DNA of 64,000 nt from Alphaproteobacteria bacterium (GTDB lineage: Bacteria > Pseudomonadota > Alphaproteobacteria > JAQWUY01), in contig OZ254962.1 of NCBI GenBank assembly GCA_965276005.1, positions 2,890,699 through 2,954,698 on the forward strand, in the 5' to 3' direction. A program made the translations under genes and the position numbers. Below are positions 34,998-50,174 of the stretch, one piece after another (position 1 is the stretch's first letter; each line of letters starts with the position of its first letter). Under the pieces are notes generated by a model, which did no database searches, was not told where the DNA came from, and saw only the letters and a list, made by a program, of their open reading frames with translations.

Positions 34998-35047
34998 AGA
35001 TAAAGATTTTTATAACCCATTGCCCCGATAAGCGGGGCAAAGAAAGT
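34998..35047 (+). promoter_or_regulatory. Conserved upstream element copy 1
   Basis: AGATAA..TTTT..TTGCCCCG-ATAAG-CGGGGCAA-AGAAAGT. Confidence 0.8.
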
Positions 35048-35078
35048 AATCCATTATGTACTATTGAGGAGAATACCT

Positions 35079-35387
35079 ATGGACATTTCAAAAATTATTG
35101 AACATTTTATCCCTTCCATTAACCATAATTATACATTTGTAACACCTGTTCCTACAGTTATCAATATGGTGTCTGGCATGAACGGCTATATTTTTAGTAT
35201 TTCGTTTGGTCAGGACAGTGCCACCATTTACTATGCCCACAATCTGGCGGATATGGATGGCAAACGCATTGAGACTTATGAAACGGTGCTGTTTGCATCA
35301 AATAAAAATGAAACAGCCGAACAGATCGCCGAACGGATTTCCGATAAACTTGACCATATGAACATTAGTTTAATCCCATCTCAATAA
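35079..35387 (+). CDS. Hypothetical protein
   Basis: GAGGAGA RBS before ATG 35079. Confidence 0.65.
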   Translation: MDISKIIEHFIPSINHNYTFVTPVPTVINMVSGMNGYIFSISFGQDSATIYYAHNLADMDGKRIETYETVLFASNKNETAEQIAERISDKLDHMNISLIPSQ

Positions 35388-35401
35388 GGAGGAATACCAT
35401 T

Positions 35402-37105
35402 ATGAAAACATTTACAGCAAAAGTATCTGGCGATATGATTGCCAAAGCAACCCGCTTGTTTAATGCGACTATCGATCAAATTTTAACCGAATTGTTGCAA
35501 AACGCCCGCCGGGCAGGGGCGACAGTGATTGACCTCTCCTGTGTCCGCCGTCAAGATAGTAAGAACATGTTAGATTTTTGTATAATAGACAATGGCATAG
35601 GGTGTCAACATCCTGAGGATATGTTTCACTTGGGAAAGTCCGCATGGAACACAGATATTACGACCACAGAAGACCCGGCGGGTATGGGGGTGTTTTGCCT
35701 AGCAGGGTGTGAGGACATTAAAATTGTATCAAGAACTGCTGCTGCCGAAGCGTGGACAGTGTACCTAGAAAATGCCCATTTTAACGGTAAAGCGGATATT
35801 AAACCGTTGCCTAGTGATATGCAACAACAAGGCACAGAGATTTATTTTAGCAAAATGAGTAATGATGCCCATAACATACATACGATTATCGAAAGTGCCT
35901 GCCGATATTTGCCTGTTAAGGTTATACTAAACGGCACCGCCATACAACAACAAGACTTTTTACATGATGCCCTATATGTGCAAGAATATAAGGGTATTAG
36001 GTATGCTGTATGCCCAAAGCAATATGCGAGTATCTTAAAACCCACACCCAGTATTAACTTTTATGGTCATGGATTGTGTGAGGATATACTGCCTTGCTTA
36101 AAAACCGATGCTGGAAAGTTATGTGTTAAAATCGATGTACAGCATACAAATGGTTTAGAGTTGGTATTGCCACAACGCAATGAAGTGGTGCATAATGAAA
36201 AGTTTGATGCAGTGTGTGCATATGCCTATAAGGTGCTTTATGGGTATGTTGCAGACAATAATATATCGCACAATTTGCCTTATAAGGTGTACCAACATGC
36301 ACAATCATTTGGATACGATATTGGTGAGGCTAAGCCAAAACTGCGTGCTGTGTGTGGTATGATAGATAGCGGTGCTGTTAAAACCGATATTACCGATACA
36401 GTCTGCTTTTTGTCAGAGAACATGATACAAAAATGGCATGATAGCCATCATGATTTTATGGCATCATGGGTCAGTGGCGGTGATACCGATACCGTGTTCG
36501 TTGAACCAGATACAGAATATGCAGGGTATAGTTGGTACAATACTATTGCTACTGTTATCGATGTGATGCTGTGGTGTAATGGTAAACCTTACAGCAGACA
36601 AAACGATTCACGACAGAACAACCAAGTAGGTTGGAAAGTGTCAGATATACATATCGAATTAAAGTTAAGCAATGGCAAGACCGTTAAACGACCGATTGGT
36701 ATGTTTGTATCTGGTTGTCCCGGATTAGCACTTGCATCTGTACAACAATTATGGATCGATCCAAATAAAATATGTCTTGATAGTATTATTGCTATCTTTA
36801 AACAGTACATGTTTGACTATTATGGGTCTGACGATTCGTTTGAAGAATCTTGGAAATATTTTAAGACAGAAGTTATGGAACAGGCTATCAATATTGCATT
36901 TCAAGATAACCGTATGCTGTTGATTGAAGAAATCATACATCAATCCGGGCTAGGGTATTATTTACGGACGGGCGAATCATATACCATCACCAAGAATACC
37001 CAGTGGCAGGCAAAGGTTACACCCAATTTTGACCTATGGTTTTGGATTAGGCATGTGTGTAGCCGTCTGTATAACCGCATTAAGATAAAGCCAAGCACTA
37101 CATAA
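35402..37105 (+). CDS. GHKL/HATPase-domain protein of alphaproteobacterial plasmid backbones
   Basis: LTELLQNARRAGA, IIDNGIG and EDPAGMGVFCLA Bergerat-fold motifs. Confidence 0.85.
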   Translation: MKTFTAKVSGDMIAKATRLFNATIDQILTELLQNARRAGATVIDLSCVRRQDSKNMLDFCIIDNGIGCQHPEDMFHLGKSAWNTDITTTEDPAGMGVFCLAGCEDIKIVSRTAAAEAWTVYLENAHFNGKADIKPLPSDMQQQGTEIYFSKMSNDAHNIHTIIESACRYLPVKVILNGTAIQQQDFLHDALYVQEYKGIRYAVCPKQYASILKPTPSINFYGHGLCEDILPCLKTDAGKLCVKIDVQHTNGLELVLPQRNEVVHNEKFDAVCAYAYKVLYGYVADNNISHNLPYKVYQHAQSFGYDIGEAKPKLRAVCGMIDSGAVKTDITDTVCFLSENMIQKWHDSHHDFMASWVSGGDTDTVFVEPDTEYAGYSWYNTIATVIDVMLWCNGKPYSRQNDSRQNNQVGWKVSDIHIELKLSNGKTVKRPIGMFVSGCPGLALASVQQLWIDPNKICLDSIIAIFKQYMFDYYGSDDSFEESWKYFKTEVMEQAINIAFQDNRMLLIEEIIHQSGLGYYLRTGESYTITKNTQWQAKVTPNFDLWFWIRHVCSRLYNRIKIKPSTT

Positions 37106-37112
37106 CATACAC

Positions 37113-37137
37113 GGGGGATACATGCCCCCATTTTTTT
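37113..37137 (+). terminator. Intrinsic terminator
   Basis: ggggg-atacatg-ccccc-atttttttt. Confidence 0.6.
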
Positions 37138-37144
37138 ACCCAAT

Positions 37145-37194
37145 AGATAAAATTTTTTCATATATATGCCCCCGTAAGGGGGGCAAAAGAAAGT
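37145..37194 (+). promoter_or_regulatory. Conserved upstream element copy 2
   Basis: AGATAA..TTTT..TGCCCCC-GTAAG-GGGGGCA-AAAGAAAGT. Confidence 0.8.
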
Positions 37195-37225
37195 ATTTAT
37201 TTTTTGACAACGAGGAGATACCAAA

Positions 37226-48412: not shown

Positions 48413-48461
48413 AGATAAGTACTTCCTTTTAAAACACCCACACACAGGGGGTAAAGTAAAA
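48413..48461 (+). promoter_or_regulatory. Conserved upstream element copy 9 (degenerate)
   Basis: AGATAAG..ACCC-ACACACAG-GGGT-AAAGTAAAA, same 40-nt spacing. Confidence 0.6.
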
Positions 48462-48480
48462 TTTTAAATCAGGAGAGTTT

Positions 48481-48852
48481 ATGATGAAAATTATAGTTGC
48501 CGGCGGGCGGACATTTACAGATCAAAATATGGGATTTGCGTATTTAAGCAAACTACTTAAATCAGAAAATCTCTGTATTATAAGTGGCGATGCTAATGGT
48601 GCCGATACTATTGGTAAAAACTTCGCCAAAACACAGAATTTAGATTTAATTATAGTACCTGCTATGTGGCATGTGTACGGTAAAAGTGCTGGGTACCATC
48701 GTAACACTATTATGGCATCGATTGCCGATGGCTTAATTGCTTTTTGGAATAGTAAGTCCCATGGCACCAAGCATATGATTGATACTATGAAGTCGTTGGG
48801 TAAACGGGTGATAATCGTAAACTATATCACTGGTGAAATTCTGAAAGGTTAA
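48481..48852 (+). CDS. SLOG superfamily (DUF2493/YspA-like) protein
   Basis: KIIVAGGRTF, IISGDANGAD, WHVYGKSAGYHRN and AFWNSKSHGTKHMI motifs. Confidence 0.88.
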   Translation: MMKIIVAGGRTFTDQNMGFAYLSKLLKSENLCIISGDANGADTIGKNFAKTQNLDLIIVPAMWHVYGKSAGYHRNTIMASIADGLIAFWNSKSHGTKHMIDTMKSLGKRVIIVNYITGEILKG

Positions 48853-48856
48853 AAAT

Positions 48857-49297
48857 ATGGGTATAAAATTCGCAGCGGGTGATATATTCGCCCAACCTGT
48901 GCAAGCACTTATAAATCCTGTAAACACGGTTGGTGTTATGGGTAAGGAGCTTGCGATACAATTCAAAAATCGCTATCCACAGTATTTTGCCTATTATCAA
49001 AATCAGTGTGCTAGTGGGGAACTGTGTATGGGTACTGTTCGTGGTTATGATGTGGGCGAATATATCGTAGTATCATTTCCCACCAAAAAACACTGGTCCG
49101 ACAATTCCCAACTGTCAGATATTATCGCTGGGTTGAAATATTTAAAATCGTATATTGCAAAATTTCAAATGCAATCTATCGCCATACCTGCATTAGGGTG
49201 TGGACTAGGCAGCTTGCAATGGACAGGGGTAAAATCTGTTATCGAAACCATTTTATCTGATTGTCCATGCGACATTATCGTATTACAACCAAGATAA
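48857..49297 (+). CDS. Macro domain protein (DarG-like ADP-ribosylglycohydrolase)
   Basis: GDIF..ALINPVNTVGVMGK.LAIQFK..FPTKKHW..SIAIPALGCGLGSL.W. Confidence 0.92.
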   Translation: MGIKFAAGDIFAQPVQALINPVNTVGVMGKELAIQFKNRYPQYFAYYQNQCASGELCMGTVRGYDVGEYIVVSFPTKKHWSDNSQLSDIIAGLKYLKSYIAKFQMQSIAIPALGCGLGSLQWTGVKSVIETILSDCPCDIIVLQPR

Positions 49298-49341
49298 GAA
49301 ATTGTAAACAAAATGCCCCCACAAGGGGGCGGAAAGAAAGT
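49292..49341 (+). promoter_or_regulatory. Conserved upstream element copy 10
   Basis: AGATAAG..GCCCCC-ACAA-GGGGGC-GG-AAAGAAAGT; the AGATAA box includes the macro gene stop codon. Confidence 0.78.
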
Positions 49342-49375
49342 TTCATGTAACAGTAACAGCATAAGGAGACATCAA

Positions 49376-49837
49376 ATGGCTGCAAGCGTGAACAAAGTAA
49401 TCTTAATCGGAAACTTGGGTGCAAACCCAGACATTCGCAATACACAAAGTGGGGCAAAGGTGGCAACATTCAGCCTTGCAACAACAGAAAGCTGGAAAGA
49501 CCCATCTGGTCAAAAACAAGACCGTACCGAGTGGCACCGTGTGGTAATATGGGGGGATGGCTTGGTCAATGTGGTCGCACAGTACCTGCATAAAGGCTCA
49601 AAAATCTATATCGAAGGGCAGTTGCGTACCCGCAAATGGCAAAATCAACAAGGTCAAGACCAATACAGTACAGAAGTTGTTGTATCCGGATTTGGTGGAG
49701 GGCTGACCATGCTATCACCATCGCAAAACAATGGAGGACAAAACCAGCAACCGGTACAGCAGGCAGGCACTGTTGAAGCCCAACATCAAGCATCACCGCC
49801 CCCCATTGCAGATGTAGACGATGATGCCCCATTTTAA
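49376..49837 (+). CDS. ssb: Single-stranded DNA-binding protein
   Basis: SVNKVILIGNLGANP, TEWHRVV and KGSKIYIEGQLRTRKW motifs; acidic DDDAPF tail; terminator at 49868-49895. Confidence 0.98.
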   Translation: MAASVNKVILIGNLGANPDIRNTQSGAKVATFSLATTESWKDPSGQKQDRTEWHRVVIWGDGLVNVVAQYLHKGSKIYIEGQLRTRKWQNQQGQDQYSTEVVVSGFGGGLTMLSPSQNNGGQNQQPVQQAGTVEAQHQASPPPIADVDDDAPF

Positions 49838-50124
49838 ACAGTTTTTTCATCTCTCTAAAAAACACTGTGCGGAGTTTCGGCTCCGCATTTTTTTGTCGAG
49901 TATTATTTCATAGAATGCGTTATAAATCCGTTTTAAAGGTGCCACAGTGCCTATAAATCCATCTTGCATTACAATTCAATTAAAATAGGTTTCGCTTAAC
50001 CTTACACCTTTAAAATCCAGATTAGACACATTTTCAAGGCAAGAATAACATCTAAAATGTGCCATACGGTCGTTTCAACATATGCACAGTGCGTAAAACT
50101 GTATTCTATGCACCCACCCACACA

Positions 50125-50174
50125 AGATAAACGATTTTACCAAAAATAGACCGCTAATAAGCGGAAAGTTAAGT
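50125..50174 (+). promoter_or_regulatory. Conserved upstream element copy 11
   Basis: AGATAA..TTTT..CCGCT-AATA-AGCGG-AAAGTTAAGT. Confidence 0.7.

What the first reader, a model, noticed from the sequence alone, without database searches (positions are those of the whole stretch)
34998..50174. Eleven-copy bipartite hairpin element heading the units of a leading-region array: candidate new promoter class
Seen: copies start at 34998, 37145, 39335, 43790, 44480, 45336, 46196, 47772, 48413, 49292 and 50125. Each has AGATAA, a T run, a 4-8 bp stem with a short loop (often ATAAG-like), AAAG(A/T)AAGT, then a GGAG-type RBS. AGATAA-to-AAAG spacing is 40-41 nt in 10 of 11 copies. Stem sequences differ (GCCCCG, GCACCC, GACCCC, AATCGC, CCGCT) but pairing is kept, which is covariation. 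I see no canonical -35 and no copies outside this interval. All point toward the candidate nic, so the transferred strand would be their template. Known analogues: Frpo/ssi ssDNA promoters, IncN CUP elements, T4-like PeSL cassettes and N4 hairpin promoters; none has this architecture as far as I recall. Inference: a structure-dependent or activator-dependent promoter giving a burst of early expression in the recipient.
Basis: partly seen in the sequence, partly recalled or inferred. Interest (0 to 1): 0.9.

Follow-up and report, generated by a model that had tools for sequence, protein, structure and literature searches.

The report
Repeated hairpin-bearing promoter-like cassette array
Eleven copies of a 50-base element with two fixed boxes around a variable but always self-pairing hairpin sit just upstream of gene units in a mobile-element gene array; they most likely act as portable promoters, but what the hairpin does is unknown.

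Summary
All 11 copies lie at the stated starts, on the + strand, 18-42 nt upstream of a start codon with a GGAG-type ribosome site. A covariance model scores them 46-65 bits; the next best window hit scores 16. The hairpin covaries: 82% of cells are paired against 65% in shuffles. The claim of no copies elsewhere holds for the window but not for the genome. Eight more CM matches lie outside it: six in a rearranged second array, one intact solitary copy and one weak, degenerate remnant.

I found no relatives in about 800 other genomes, in plasmids, in viral contigs or in a capped metagenome scan.

Best reading (0.5): a self-contained promoter cassette read as linear duplex by the host's main RNA polymerase. 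It would have a UP-like AGATAA/T-tract, a −35-like TTGNCC in the 5′ arm, a 16-17 nt spacer and a weak −10-like (G/T)AAAGT. The box-to-box length stays at 50 nt although hairpin size ranges from 14 to 21 nt.

The hairpin's role, any single-strand activity, and the "leading region" and "nic" labels are all unproven. The window holds no relaxase or T4SS, and no RNA data exist. It does not fit Frpo, N4, attC or terminator definitions.

Verdict: a new variant of a known kind (repeated promoter cassettes of establishment regions). Interest is moderate.

The parts
34998..35047 (+). copy 1: AGATAA, T-run, 8-bp GC stem with 5-nt loop, AAAGAAAGT; ATG at 35079 (102-aa ORF, then 567-aa HATPase_c_3 protein)
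   Evidence: (61.7 bits)
37145..37194 (+). copy 2: heads the ParB-like gene (ATG 37226); a canonical terminator at 37113-37129 lies 8 nt upstream
   Evidence: (63.0 bits)
39335..39383 (+). copy 3: heads the 1420-aa methyltransferase plus Sno-type helicase gene (ATG 39408); terminator at 39295-39311 upstream
   Evidence: (64.0 bits)
43790..43838 (+). copy 4 (AGATAC variant): heads the 114-aa and 79-aa ORFs (ATG 43881); terminator at 43703-43721 upstream
   Evidence: (60.3 bits)
44480..44525 (+). copy 5 (46 nt, 4-nt loop, one T.G pair): heads a 40-aa ORF (ATG 44554); its first A is the last base of the upstream stop codon
   Evidence: (48.2 bits)
45336..45385 (+). copy 6 (3' box AAAGAAGAGT): heads a 72-aa ORF (ATG 45415); abuts the stop codon of the glutaredoxin gene
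   Evidence: (58.7 bits)
46196..46245 (+). copy 7 (irregular stem with a bulge): heads a 183-aa ORF (ATG 46277)
   Evidence: (46.2 bits)
47772..47821 (+). copy 8 (AT-rich stem AATCGC/GCGATT): heads a 96-aa ORF (ATG 47858)
   Evidence: (64.6 bits)
48413..48462 (+). copy 9 (weak 4-bp stem, degenerate T-run, 3' box ends AAAAT): heads the SLOG/YAcAr and Macro genes (ATG 48481); terminator at 48369-48384 upstream
   Evidence: (50.5 bits)
49292..49341 (+). copy 10 (6-bp stem, 4-nt loop): heads ssb (ATG 49376); its AGATAA holds the stop codon of the Macro gene
   Evidence: (54.1 bits)
50125..50174 (+). copy 11 (5-bp stem CCGCT/AGCGG, 4-nt loop, 3' box AAAGTTAAGT): heads the DUF488 gene (ATG 50202)
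   Evidence: (47.4 bits)
37113..37140 (+). one of six + strand intrinsic terminators that the scan finds closing units of the array; the others are at 39295-39320, 43703-43730, 44682-44708, 48369-48394 and 49867-49898

Best explanation
Each element is a portable, self-contained promoter cassette that drives one unit of an establishment or anti-defence gene array in a decaying mobile element. I propose it is read as ordinary duplex DNA by the host RNA polymerase with its main sigma factor.

Taking the final T of the 3' box as position -7, the parts would be:
- AGATAA plus the T-run at about -56 to -43, acting like a UP element or an upstream factor site.
- The first six bases of the 5'-arm region (TTGCCC, TTGTCC, TCGACC, TAGACC and similar) as a -35-like hexamer.
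- A 16-17 nt spacer.
- (G/T)AAAGT as a weak -10-like hexamer that keeps the two key bases, A at position 2 and T at position 6.

Transcription would then start about 7 nt downstream of the box, giving leaders of roughly 11-35 nt that carry a strong Shine-Dalgarno site.

The hairpin (dyad centre near -24) is under selection for pairing, but its role is not explained. It could modulate the promoter through supercoil-dependent extrusion or a structure-binding factor. It could also act in read-through RNA.

Shown: the repeat family, its spacing, the covariation, its position before genes and after terminators, and its restriction to this element lineage. Inferred: promoter function, which polymerase reads it, and the start site.
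For: - The 11 copies are specific: 46-65 bits against 16 bits or less for noise. All are on the coding strand, 18-42 nt upstream of an ATG with a GGAG-type site.
- Canonical + strand terminators lie directly upstream of copies 2, 3, 4 and 9, and copy 1 opens the array at a divergent intergenic region. These units need their own start signal, and the element is the only sequence they share.
- The conserved block (50 nt in 8 of 11 copies) is the size of an RNA polymerase recognition region including a UP element. That size comparison is recalled knowledge.
- Read from the rows printed, the last six bases have A at position 2 in 10 of 11 copies and T at position 6 in 11 of 11. A hexamer 16-17 nt upstream matches TTGACA at 3 or more of 6 positions in 8 of 11 copies, and at 4 or more in 5 of 11.
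- Linear length is constant although the hairpin spans 14-21 nt, and the dyad centre stays 16.5-18.5 nt from the final T. This fits recognition of linear duplex DNA.
- The genome has only two sigma-70-family genes, both far from the arrays. An element-encoded sigma factor is therefore not available.
- Decayed copies in the second array and at C1:1378367-1378427 have lost both box and stem integrity together with their genes.
Against: - There is no transcript evidence of any kind. No RNA run was listed, and the laid runs are DNA contigs.
- By the usual criteria none of the 11 copies is called a sigma-70 promoter in this register. The -10-like hexamer matches TATAAT at only 3 of 6 positions in 8 copies. 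The -35-like hexamer is poor in copies 4, 8 and 9.
- Neighbouring genes use near-consensus promoters: TTGACA, 17 nt, TATACT at 34856-34828 on the - strand. The host polymerase therefore does not need an odd -10.
- A plain duplex promoter does not explain why the stem covaries.
The -35/-10 reading rests on counting by eye.
Confidence: 0.5

Rival explanations
1. RNA-leader cassette. Transcription starts upstream of the hairpin, using the AAGAT(A) part of the 5' box as a -10-like hexamer and the T-run as the discriminator or initially transcribed region. The hairpin plus AAAGAAAGU would then form the 5' leader of each mRNA. The 5' stem-loop would protect against decay. The A-rich single strand would act as a ribosome standby or enhancer site, or as a binding site for an RNA-binding regulator.
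For: - The hairpin covaries, as expected of an RNA structure, and appears in the minimum-energy RNA fold of 9 of 11 leaders.
- nAAGAT has T at position 6 in 11 of 11 copies and A at position 2 in 8 of 11 (read).
- A purine usually follows the T-run.
- Leading regions are reported to be tuned for fast translation (PMC13478746, passages seen).
Against: - There is no conserved -35 upstream of AGATAA. In copy 2 that position falls inside the preceding terminator stem.
- The start site would fall in a run of T.
- The loops are not the GNRA or UNCG types usual for stabilising RNA hairpins (recalled knowledge).
- Wobble pairs show no preference for the sense strand: 4 G.U in 105 pairs on the + strand against 3 in 106 on the - strand.
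- Constant linear length despite variable hairpin size is not required of an RNA leader.
Confidence: 0.2
2. Structure-dependent promoter. The hairpin must form for the promoter to fire or to shut off. It could form in the transferred single strand on entry into a recipient, or by supercoil-driven extrusion. This would be analogous to phage N4 early promoters, or to a cruciform switch that silences the promoter once the DNA is supercoiled.
For: - Pairing is conserved with arbitrary stem sequence.
- The hairpin position is fixed relative to both boxes.
- Hairpin energies are similar on both strands, as a cruciform would need.
- All units point the same way, and the gene content is that of early-expressed establishment regions.
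- No Frpo-like long hairpin is present to do that job. The 166 windows of 200 nt on the - strand have a minimum of -33.1 kcal/mol.
Against: - A 5-8 bp stem cannot rebuild a duplex -35/-10, which is what the known single-strand promoters do. Those were mined as large stem-loops below -75 kcal/mol (PMC12672017, passages seen).
- If the hairpin were extruded, the distance between the boxes would vary from 29 to 36 nt. What is conserved is the linear 50 nt.
- No dedicated polymerase is seen in the window.
- No relaxase, oriT or T4SS adjoins the array, so transfer as a single strand in this orientation is unproven.
- Two copies have very weak stems.
Confidence: 0.15
3. Cassette-boundary or DNA-processing site. 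The hairpin with conserved flanks would be recognised by structure, like integron attC sites, REP elements or single-strand initiation (priming) signals. It would mediate the gain, loss or shuffling of gene modules, or the priming of the complementary strand. Any promoter activity would be secondary.
For: - Conserved flanks around a stem of variable sequence but conserved pairing is the signature of structure-recognised sites (recalled knowledge).
- Three breakpoints between the window array and the second array fall at element edges: window 44525, 46209 and 49304. The same joints are seen in the laid contigs.
- The 5' box often abuts or contains the stop codon of the upstream gene.
Against: - The two flanks are not complementary to each other, as attC cores are.
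- No integron integrase or HUH transposase was seen in the window; there is only a serine recombinase 13 kb away.
- The strict placement 18-42 nt before a ribosome site and on the coding strand is what a gene-expression signal needs, not a recombination site.
- Breakpoints at repeats can arise by ordinary homologous or microhomology recombination.
Confidence: 0.08
4. Inert repeat. The elements would be relics of a duplicated intergenic segment with no present function.
For: The host arrays are decaying, with a truncated MazF, rearrangements and degenerate copies.
Against: - The genes between the copies are unrelated, so the copies are not by-products of segment duplication.
- Compensatory stem changes and length compensation indicate selection.
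Confidence: 0.05

Closest known systems
Frpo / ssi / ssp single-stranded DNA promoters of IncF and IncI leading regions
   Same: They stand upstream of leading-region operons such as ssb and anti-restriction genes. They are oriented so that the transferred strand is the template. They depend on intrastrand pairing.
   Different: Those are large stem-loops that rebuild a duplex -35 and -10. They were mined below -75 kcal/mol (PMC12672017, passages seen; PMC13478746, passages seen). Here the stem is 4-8 bp, -2 to -10 kcal/mol with DNA parameters. No long hairpin exists in the array.
Phage N4 early promoters read by the virion RNA polymerase (recalled, not from a call)
   Same: A small hairpin with conserved flanking bases at a fixed distance from the presumed start, present in several copies at the entering end of a genome.
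   Different: N4 hairpins have 3-nt loops and need an injected dedicated polymerase. Here the loops are 4-7 nt and no such polymerase was found in the window. The PF00940 search of the genome found nothing, but its control rang nowhere, so it is uninformative.
PeSL cassettes (early promoter plus stem-loop) of T4-type phages (recalled; my literature search failed on a short term)
   Same: Short repeated regulatory cassettes flank small, variable genes of an early region. They sit at module boundaries and plausibly mediate shuffling.
   Different: In PeSL the stem-loop is a terminator next to a canonical sigma-70 early promoter. Here the stem-loop lies inside the promoter-sized block, separate canonical terminators exist, and the hexamers are non-canonical.
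CUP repeats of the IncN (pKM101) leading region, and repressor-controlled establishment promoters (ArdK; Reg576 of p576)
   Same: Repeated promoter-bearing elements head the operons of an establishment region. This gives a burst of expression on entry, followed by repression by an element-encoded factor.
   Different: CUP repeats are much longer. Their operators are sequence-specific protein sites, not a stem of free sequence. No ArdK or Reg576 homologue was tested here. I saw only search listings and abstract starts for these papers; the details are recalled.
Integron attC sites
   Same: Arrays of co-oriented small genes are separated by structured repeats in which pairing, not sequence, is conserved.
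   Different: attC sites lie 3' of cassettes, have complementary R''/R' cores and extrahelical bases, and come with an IntI integrase. None of these is seen here.
Sigma-70 promoters with a UP element
   Same: An A/T-tract block about 40-56 nt upstream of the presumed start, a TTG-type -35, a 16-17 nt spacer and a -10 that keeps A2 and T6.
   Different: The -10 is only 3 of 6 in most copies. The T-run lies about 3-4 bp nearer the start than in the recalled UP consensus. A covarying dyad fills the -35 and spacer region.

Membership tests
Frpo/ssi-type single-stranded DNA promoter | A long imperfect hairpin (hundreds of nt, very low free energy) in the transferred strand that reconstitutes a duplex -35 and -10 | tested here: not met
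   The element hairpin spans 14-21 nt and scores -2.1 to -10.3 kcal/mol with DNA parameters. The 166 windows of 200 nt on the - strand over 34500-51300 have mean -20.0 and minimum -33.1 kcal/mol. Only the - strand was scanned, at a 100-nt step.
Frpo/ssi-type single-stranded DNA promoter | Location in a leading region next to oriT, with the transferred strand as template | tested here: inconclusive
   No relaxase or T4SS lies in the window. The genome's TrwC-type relaxase and coupling protein are at C1:1042457-1049279, far from both arrays. The nic site is not identifiable.
Phage N4-type hairpin promoter | 5-7 bp stem with a 3-nt loop and conserved bases, read by a dedicated injected RNA polymerase | tested here: not met
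   Stems are 4-8 bp but loops are 4-7 nt. No polymerase-like ORF is in the window. The genome search with PF00940 was empty but its control was also empty.
Canonical sigma-70 promoter | At least 4 of 6 matches in each hexamer and 9 of 12 overall, with a 16-18 nt spacer | tested here: not met
   The scan of 34500-51300 lists 58 sites against 52.2 expected. None is in the register of the elements' 3' box. By eye the -10-like hexamer matches 3 of 6 in 8 copies, 4 of 6 in 2 and 5 of 6 in 1.
Intrinsic terminator | GC-rich hairpin followed directly by a T-tract on the transcribed strand | tested here: not met
   On the + strand every hairpin is followed by AAAG. On the - strand a lenient scan flags 4 of 11 hairpins (copies 4, 8, 10 and 11) with poor tails. 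True terminators of the array are separate features.
Integron attC site | Complementary R''/R' core sites, extrahelical bases, a position 3' of cassettes and an IntI integrase nearby | tested here: not met
   The 5' and 3' boxes are not complementary. The window has no tyrosine integrase among the ORFs scanned; there is only a serine recombinase at 20197-21633.
Any curated RNA family (Rfam 15) | A match at the family's gathering score | tested here: not met
   0 matches in the 64-kb window on both strands.
IncN CUP / repressor-controlled establishment promoters | A repeated promoter block carrying the operator of an element-encoded repressor (ArdK, Reg576) | not tested
   No CUP sequence or ArdK/Reg576 protein was at hand. 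RHH (51191) and XRE (15875) genes exist, but binding cannot be tested with these tools.

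The most novel reading that the evidence does not exclude
The elements are a new class of compact, hairpin-dependent promoters. A 5-8 bp stem of arbitrary sequence would form in the entering single strand or by supercoil-driven extrusion. 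It would gate recognition of two fixed boxes by the host polymerase. This would give mobile-element establishment genes a protein-independent burst of expression on entry, or a shut-off once the DNA is supercoiled.
Probability: 0.13. Interest if true: 0.85.

Novelty: new variant of a known kind. Interest (0 to 1): 0.5.

Why it matters
Mobile elements must express anti-defence and establishment genes quickly after entering a cell. The known solutions are long single-strand promoters (IncF, IncI) or repeated repressor-controlled promoters (IncN, IncW, p576).

This array shows a third layout: a 50-bp portable cassette in which a stem of free sequence but conserved pairing sits where the -35 and spacer would be. 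If the stem proves necessary for activity, it would be a compact, transferable regulatory part and a new way of coupling DNA topology or strandedness to transcription. If it is not necessary, the array is still a clean natural example of modular promoter cassettes marking the boundaries of shuffled anti-defence genes.

Its apparent restriction to one genome lineage limits its generality for now.

Tried and rejected
Relatives elsewhere.
- The CM found nothing in 40 relatives (0 of 40 at E <= 0.01).
- It found nothing in 6 loci holding 38-48% identical methylase-helicase genes (best 20.1 bits).
- It found nothing in 5 genomes that showed a small excess of the loose pattern.
- The loose pattern over 401 genomes of the class showed no excess over its backward control except in G000, which had 10 against 0.
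By script, none of the 119 plus 6 viral loci looked like the family. The CM, given 100 of the 119 (L033-L132; not the other 19 or the 6 viral loci), found 2 matches at E <= 0.1, best 34.4 bits.
- I read two look-alikes, L099 and L041, and judged them chance.
- Plasmid searches returned only distant ParB homologues, all under 60% identity, and the ssb segment.
- Viral contigs gave nothing for the HATPase and ParB-like proteins.
- The HATPase protein had no homologue in 400 genomes of the phylum at E <= 1e-10.

Expression. No RNA holder was listed. The four runs I laid are DNA contigs of one sample, probably the source of the genome. Their joints reproduce the second array of the same genome, so they are not independent support.

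Strand of the hairpin. By hand I first counted more T.G pairs on the + strand. A script then gave 4 against 3, so I dropped the claim.

Outer helix. Pairing between the T-run and the A-rich box appears in some folds (copies 2, 3 and 4) but shows no covariation, so I rejected it as a conserved feature.

Alternative sigma factors. By eye (consensus sequences recalled), sigma-32-like CCCCAT, sigma-28-like and sigma-54-like readings fail on spacing or are present in only a few copies.

Repeated intergenic elements. The distant homologous loci L021-L026 hold nothing analogous.

Orphan proteins of the array. PHROGs gave one weak match, E 0.00044, for the 102-aa ORF. NCBIfam named none of them. It gave two weak, below-cut-off matches for the RHH protein (51191) and named the 425-aa protein (52370) TcmP.

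Supplementary files of the papers were not opened. They may hold promoter structures relevant to the comparison with class 2 and class 3 single-strand promoters.

Full report
WHAT IS THERE

Reading 34900-40000 and 43600-51300 shows the eleven copies at the coordinates given, all on the + strand. Each consists of:
- AGATAA (AGATAC in the copy at 43790);
- three or so free bases, then a T-run;
- 8-10 A/T-rich bases;
- a hairpin;
- a box AAAG(A/T)AA(A)GT.

MAFFT aligns them with AGATA, two T of the run, one C and one G of the stem and part of the 3' box invariant.

The strict pattern occurs 6 times in the window and never in 100 shuffles. I built a covariance model from the eleven copies and ran it over the whole window without filters. 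It returns the eleven at 46.2-64.6 bits, and the next best hit scores 15.8 bits. Rfam has no family for them.

GEOMETRY

- The distance from the A of AGATAA to the final T of the 3' box is 50 nt in 8 of 11 copies, 49 in 2 and 46 in 1.
- The hairpin itself spans between 14 nt (copy 11) and 21 nt (copy 1). Its centre stays 16.5-18.5 nt from the final T.
- Where the loop is one base shorter, the flank is one base longer. The linear length is therefore what is conserved.
- After the box come 18-42 nt, a GGAG, AGGAG or GAGGAG site and an ATG in every case.

THE HAIRPIN

On the model-guided alignment of all 19 genomic matches (17 distinct rows):
- 82.4% of cells form standard pairs, against 65.0 +/- 2.4 in column shuffles (0 of 500 reach it).
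- 19 cells carry changes on both sides, against 6.7 in shuffles (0 of 500).
- Sliding the partner by 1-3 columns gives 39-57%.
- RNAalifold independently predicts 5 pairs, 4 of them with compensatory changes.

This alignment was fitted to the structure and the rows are paralogues, so the numbers lean towards the structure. Even so, stems as different as GCCCCG, GCACCC, AATCGC, CCGCT and GACCAT leave little doubt that pairing is selected. Copies 7 and 9 are weak.

As RNA, the whole leader folds better than shuffles at z <= -2 in 5 of 11 copies. Wobble pairs do not favour either strand: 4 in 105 pairs on the + strand and 3 in 106 on the - strand. The sequence therefore cannot tell an RNA or sense-strand hairpin from a template-strand hairpin or a cruciform.

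CONTEXT

The array runs from 35079 to 50609 and encodes:
- a 102-aa ORF and a 567-aa HATPase_c_3 protein;
- a 679-aa ParB-like protein;
- a 1420-aa methyltransferase fused to a Sno-type helicase;
- a glutaredoxin;
- a SLOG/YAcAr protein and a Macro-domain protein;
- SSB and a DUF488 protein;
- about ten orphan small ORFs;
- a MazE and truncated-MazF pair on the other strand.

Six canonical + strand terminators close units inside the array. Four of them lie directly upstream of copies 2, 3, 4 and 9. Copy 1 opens the array at a divergent intergenic region whose - strand side has a near-consensus promoter. Copies 5, 6 and 10 touch or contain the stop codon of the preceding gene.

The units are thus cassettes: element, ribosome site, one or two genes, and often a terminator.

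IS IT A LEADING REGION?

The gene content fits one, but the window holds no relaxase, coupling protein or T4SS.

Downstream of copy 11 lie four copies of a 16-bp palindrome (50962-51137) in front of an RHH gene. After that come a DUF5131/TcmP pair, an Abi-like gene and a KAP NTPase. This could be an operator or centromere array as easily as an oriT.

The genome is one 2.97-Mb contig, and the window is C1:2890699-2954698. It has a TrwC-type relaxase and a coupling protein at C1:1042457-1049279, at the end of a long + strand operon. A diverged ParB-like and methylase-helicase pair follows them, and that pair is not preceded by the elements. No CagE/TrbE/VirB4 match was found.

"Leading region" and "nic" therefore remain inferences.

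COPIES ELSEWHERE

In the whole genome the model finds 19 matches:
- the 11 window copies;
- six in a second array at C1:1089072-1127850 on the - strand;
- one intact solitary copy at 2962301-2962361 (-);
- one degenerate remnant at 1378367-1378427 (-).

The second array is 93-97% identical in pieces and is interrupted by chromosomal genes and a Fic gene. Its breakpoints relative to the window fall at element edges, at window positions 44525, 46209 and 49304. This suggests that the elements mark module boundaries.

Degenerate copies have lost box and stem together.

Outside this genome I found nothing. The searches are listed under Tried and rejected. The correct statement is "not found in those searched".

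HOW IT MOST LIKELY WORKS

The shared element is the only candidate start signal for units that follow terminators, and its 50-bp extent is that of a promoter with an upstream element.

If the final T is placed at -7, the last six bases read GAAAGT in 6 copies, TAAAGT in 2, and TAAAAT, AAGAGT and TTAAGT in 1 each. They keep A at position 2 in 10 of 11 copies and T at position 6 in 11 of 11. Sixteen or seventeen bases upstream lies TTGCCC, ATGCCC, TTGTCC, TCGACC, TAGACC and similar. These match TTGACA at 3 or more of 6 positions in 8 of 11 copies. AGATAA and the T-run fall at about -56 to -43, close to where a UP element lies (consensus recalled).

The genome has only two sigma-70-family genes, of 692 and 321 codons and far from the arrays.

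I therefore favour a duplex promoter cassette read by the main holoenzyme. It is probably weak on its own and helped by the upstream block or by a factor.

Against this reading:
- The standard scan does not call these sites.
- The -10 is poor.
- The model leaves the covarying stem unexplained.

RIVALS

- RNA-leader reading (start upstream of the stem, with the stem as a 5' protector and the A-rich box as a standby site). It explains the covariation. It lacks a -35, which would fall inside a terminator stem in copy 2, and it puts the start in a T-run.
- Structure-dependent reading (single-strand or extruded hairpin). This is the most novel option. However, the known single-strand promoters are large stem-loops that rebuild both hexamers (PMC12672017; PMC13478746). 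No such structure exists here. Conservation of linear rather than folded spacing also argues against an extruded state being the recognised form.
- Recombination or priming-site reading. It is supported only by the breakpoints. It is contradicted by the strict placement before ribosome sites.

COMPARISON AND NOVELTY

Repeated promoter-bearing cassettes at the heads of early or establishment operons are a known kind. Examples are the IncN CUP repeats, T4-type PeSL cassettes and repressor-controlled establishment promoters. Details of these are recalled; only listings were seen.

What is new here:
- the sequence family itself;
- its compactness;
- the covarying stem placed inside the promoter-sized block.

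It fails the defining features of Frpo-type promoters, N4 promoters, attC sites and terminators (see the membership table). I rate it a new variant of a known kind.

VERDICT

The mechanism remains open, and transcript mapping plus compensatory-mutant reporters would decide it. Interest is 0.5: a clean, unusual regulatory repeat, so far confined to one genome lineage and without any functional data.

Noticed in passing
genome C1:1087931-1130829 (- strand), loci L027-L029: A second, rearranged copy of the array. It is 93-97% identical in pieces and split by about 32 kb of metabolic genes (ABC transporter, hydantoinase, sulfatase, TctA, AcnX) and by a Fic/DOC gene. It holds six more copies of the element, two of them decayed.
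   Followed up: partly
genome C1:1022000-1061855 (+ strand): A long co-directional operon ends in a coupling protein (788 aa) and a TrwC-type relaxase (1474 aa). Diverged paralogues of the ParB-like (681 aa) and methylase-helicase (1398 aa) genes follow it, and these lack the element upstream.
   Followed up: partly
window 50950-51140: Four copies of a 16-bp palindrome (TGATACAWTGTATCA type), with flanking direct repeats, lie just upstream of an RHH gene (51191-51502). This is an operator, centromere or oriT-like array.
   Followed up: partly
window 47131-47702 (- strand): A MazE antitoxin gene with a truncated PemK/MazF remnant (53 aa) sits inside the array on the opposite strand. A TTGACA-type promoter faces copy 8.
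   Followed up: no
window 51583-57307: A DUF5131 protein with its TcmP partner, an Abi-like protein and a KAP-family NTPase with an HTH domain. This low-GC stretch (0.32-0.35) looks like a defence island next to the array.
   Followed up: no
window 22529-33217 and 62073-63998: Very large two-partner-secretion and FG-GAP repeat proteins, with internal repeats of about 300 bp and many diverged copies of their C-terminal parts across the genome.
   Followed up: no
window 43907 (loose end in runs X1-X4): Contigs of the same sample join a different leader, ending in GGGAAAGAAAGT plus 18 other bases, to the coding part of the gene behind copy 4. This suggests further element variants in the population that are not in this assembly.
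   Followed up: no
genome C1:964526 and C1:2111235: The whole 2.97-Mb genome has only two sigma-70-family genes (692 and 321 codons). This fits a host-restricted lifestyle, and sister-genus genomes are 1.1-1.2 Mb.
   Followed up: no
L021:3712-3974 (Ensifer MAG locus with a homologous methylase-helicase): Three copies of a palindrome of the TTTCCCCGGGGAAA type, preceded by GTTAA, lie within 260 bp. This is an operator-like array in a distantly related element and is unrelated in sequence to the element studied here.
   Followed up: no
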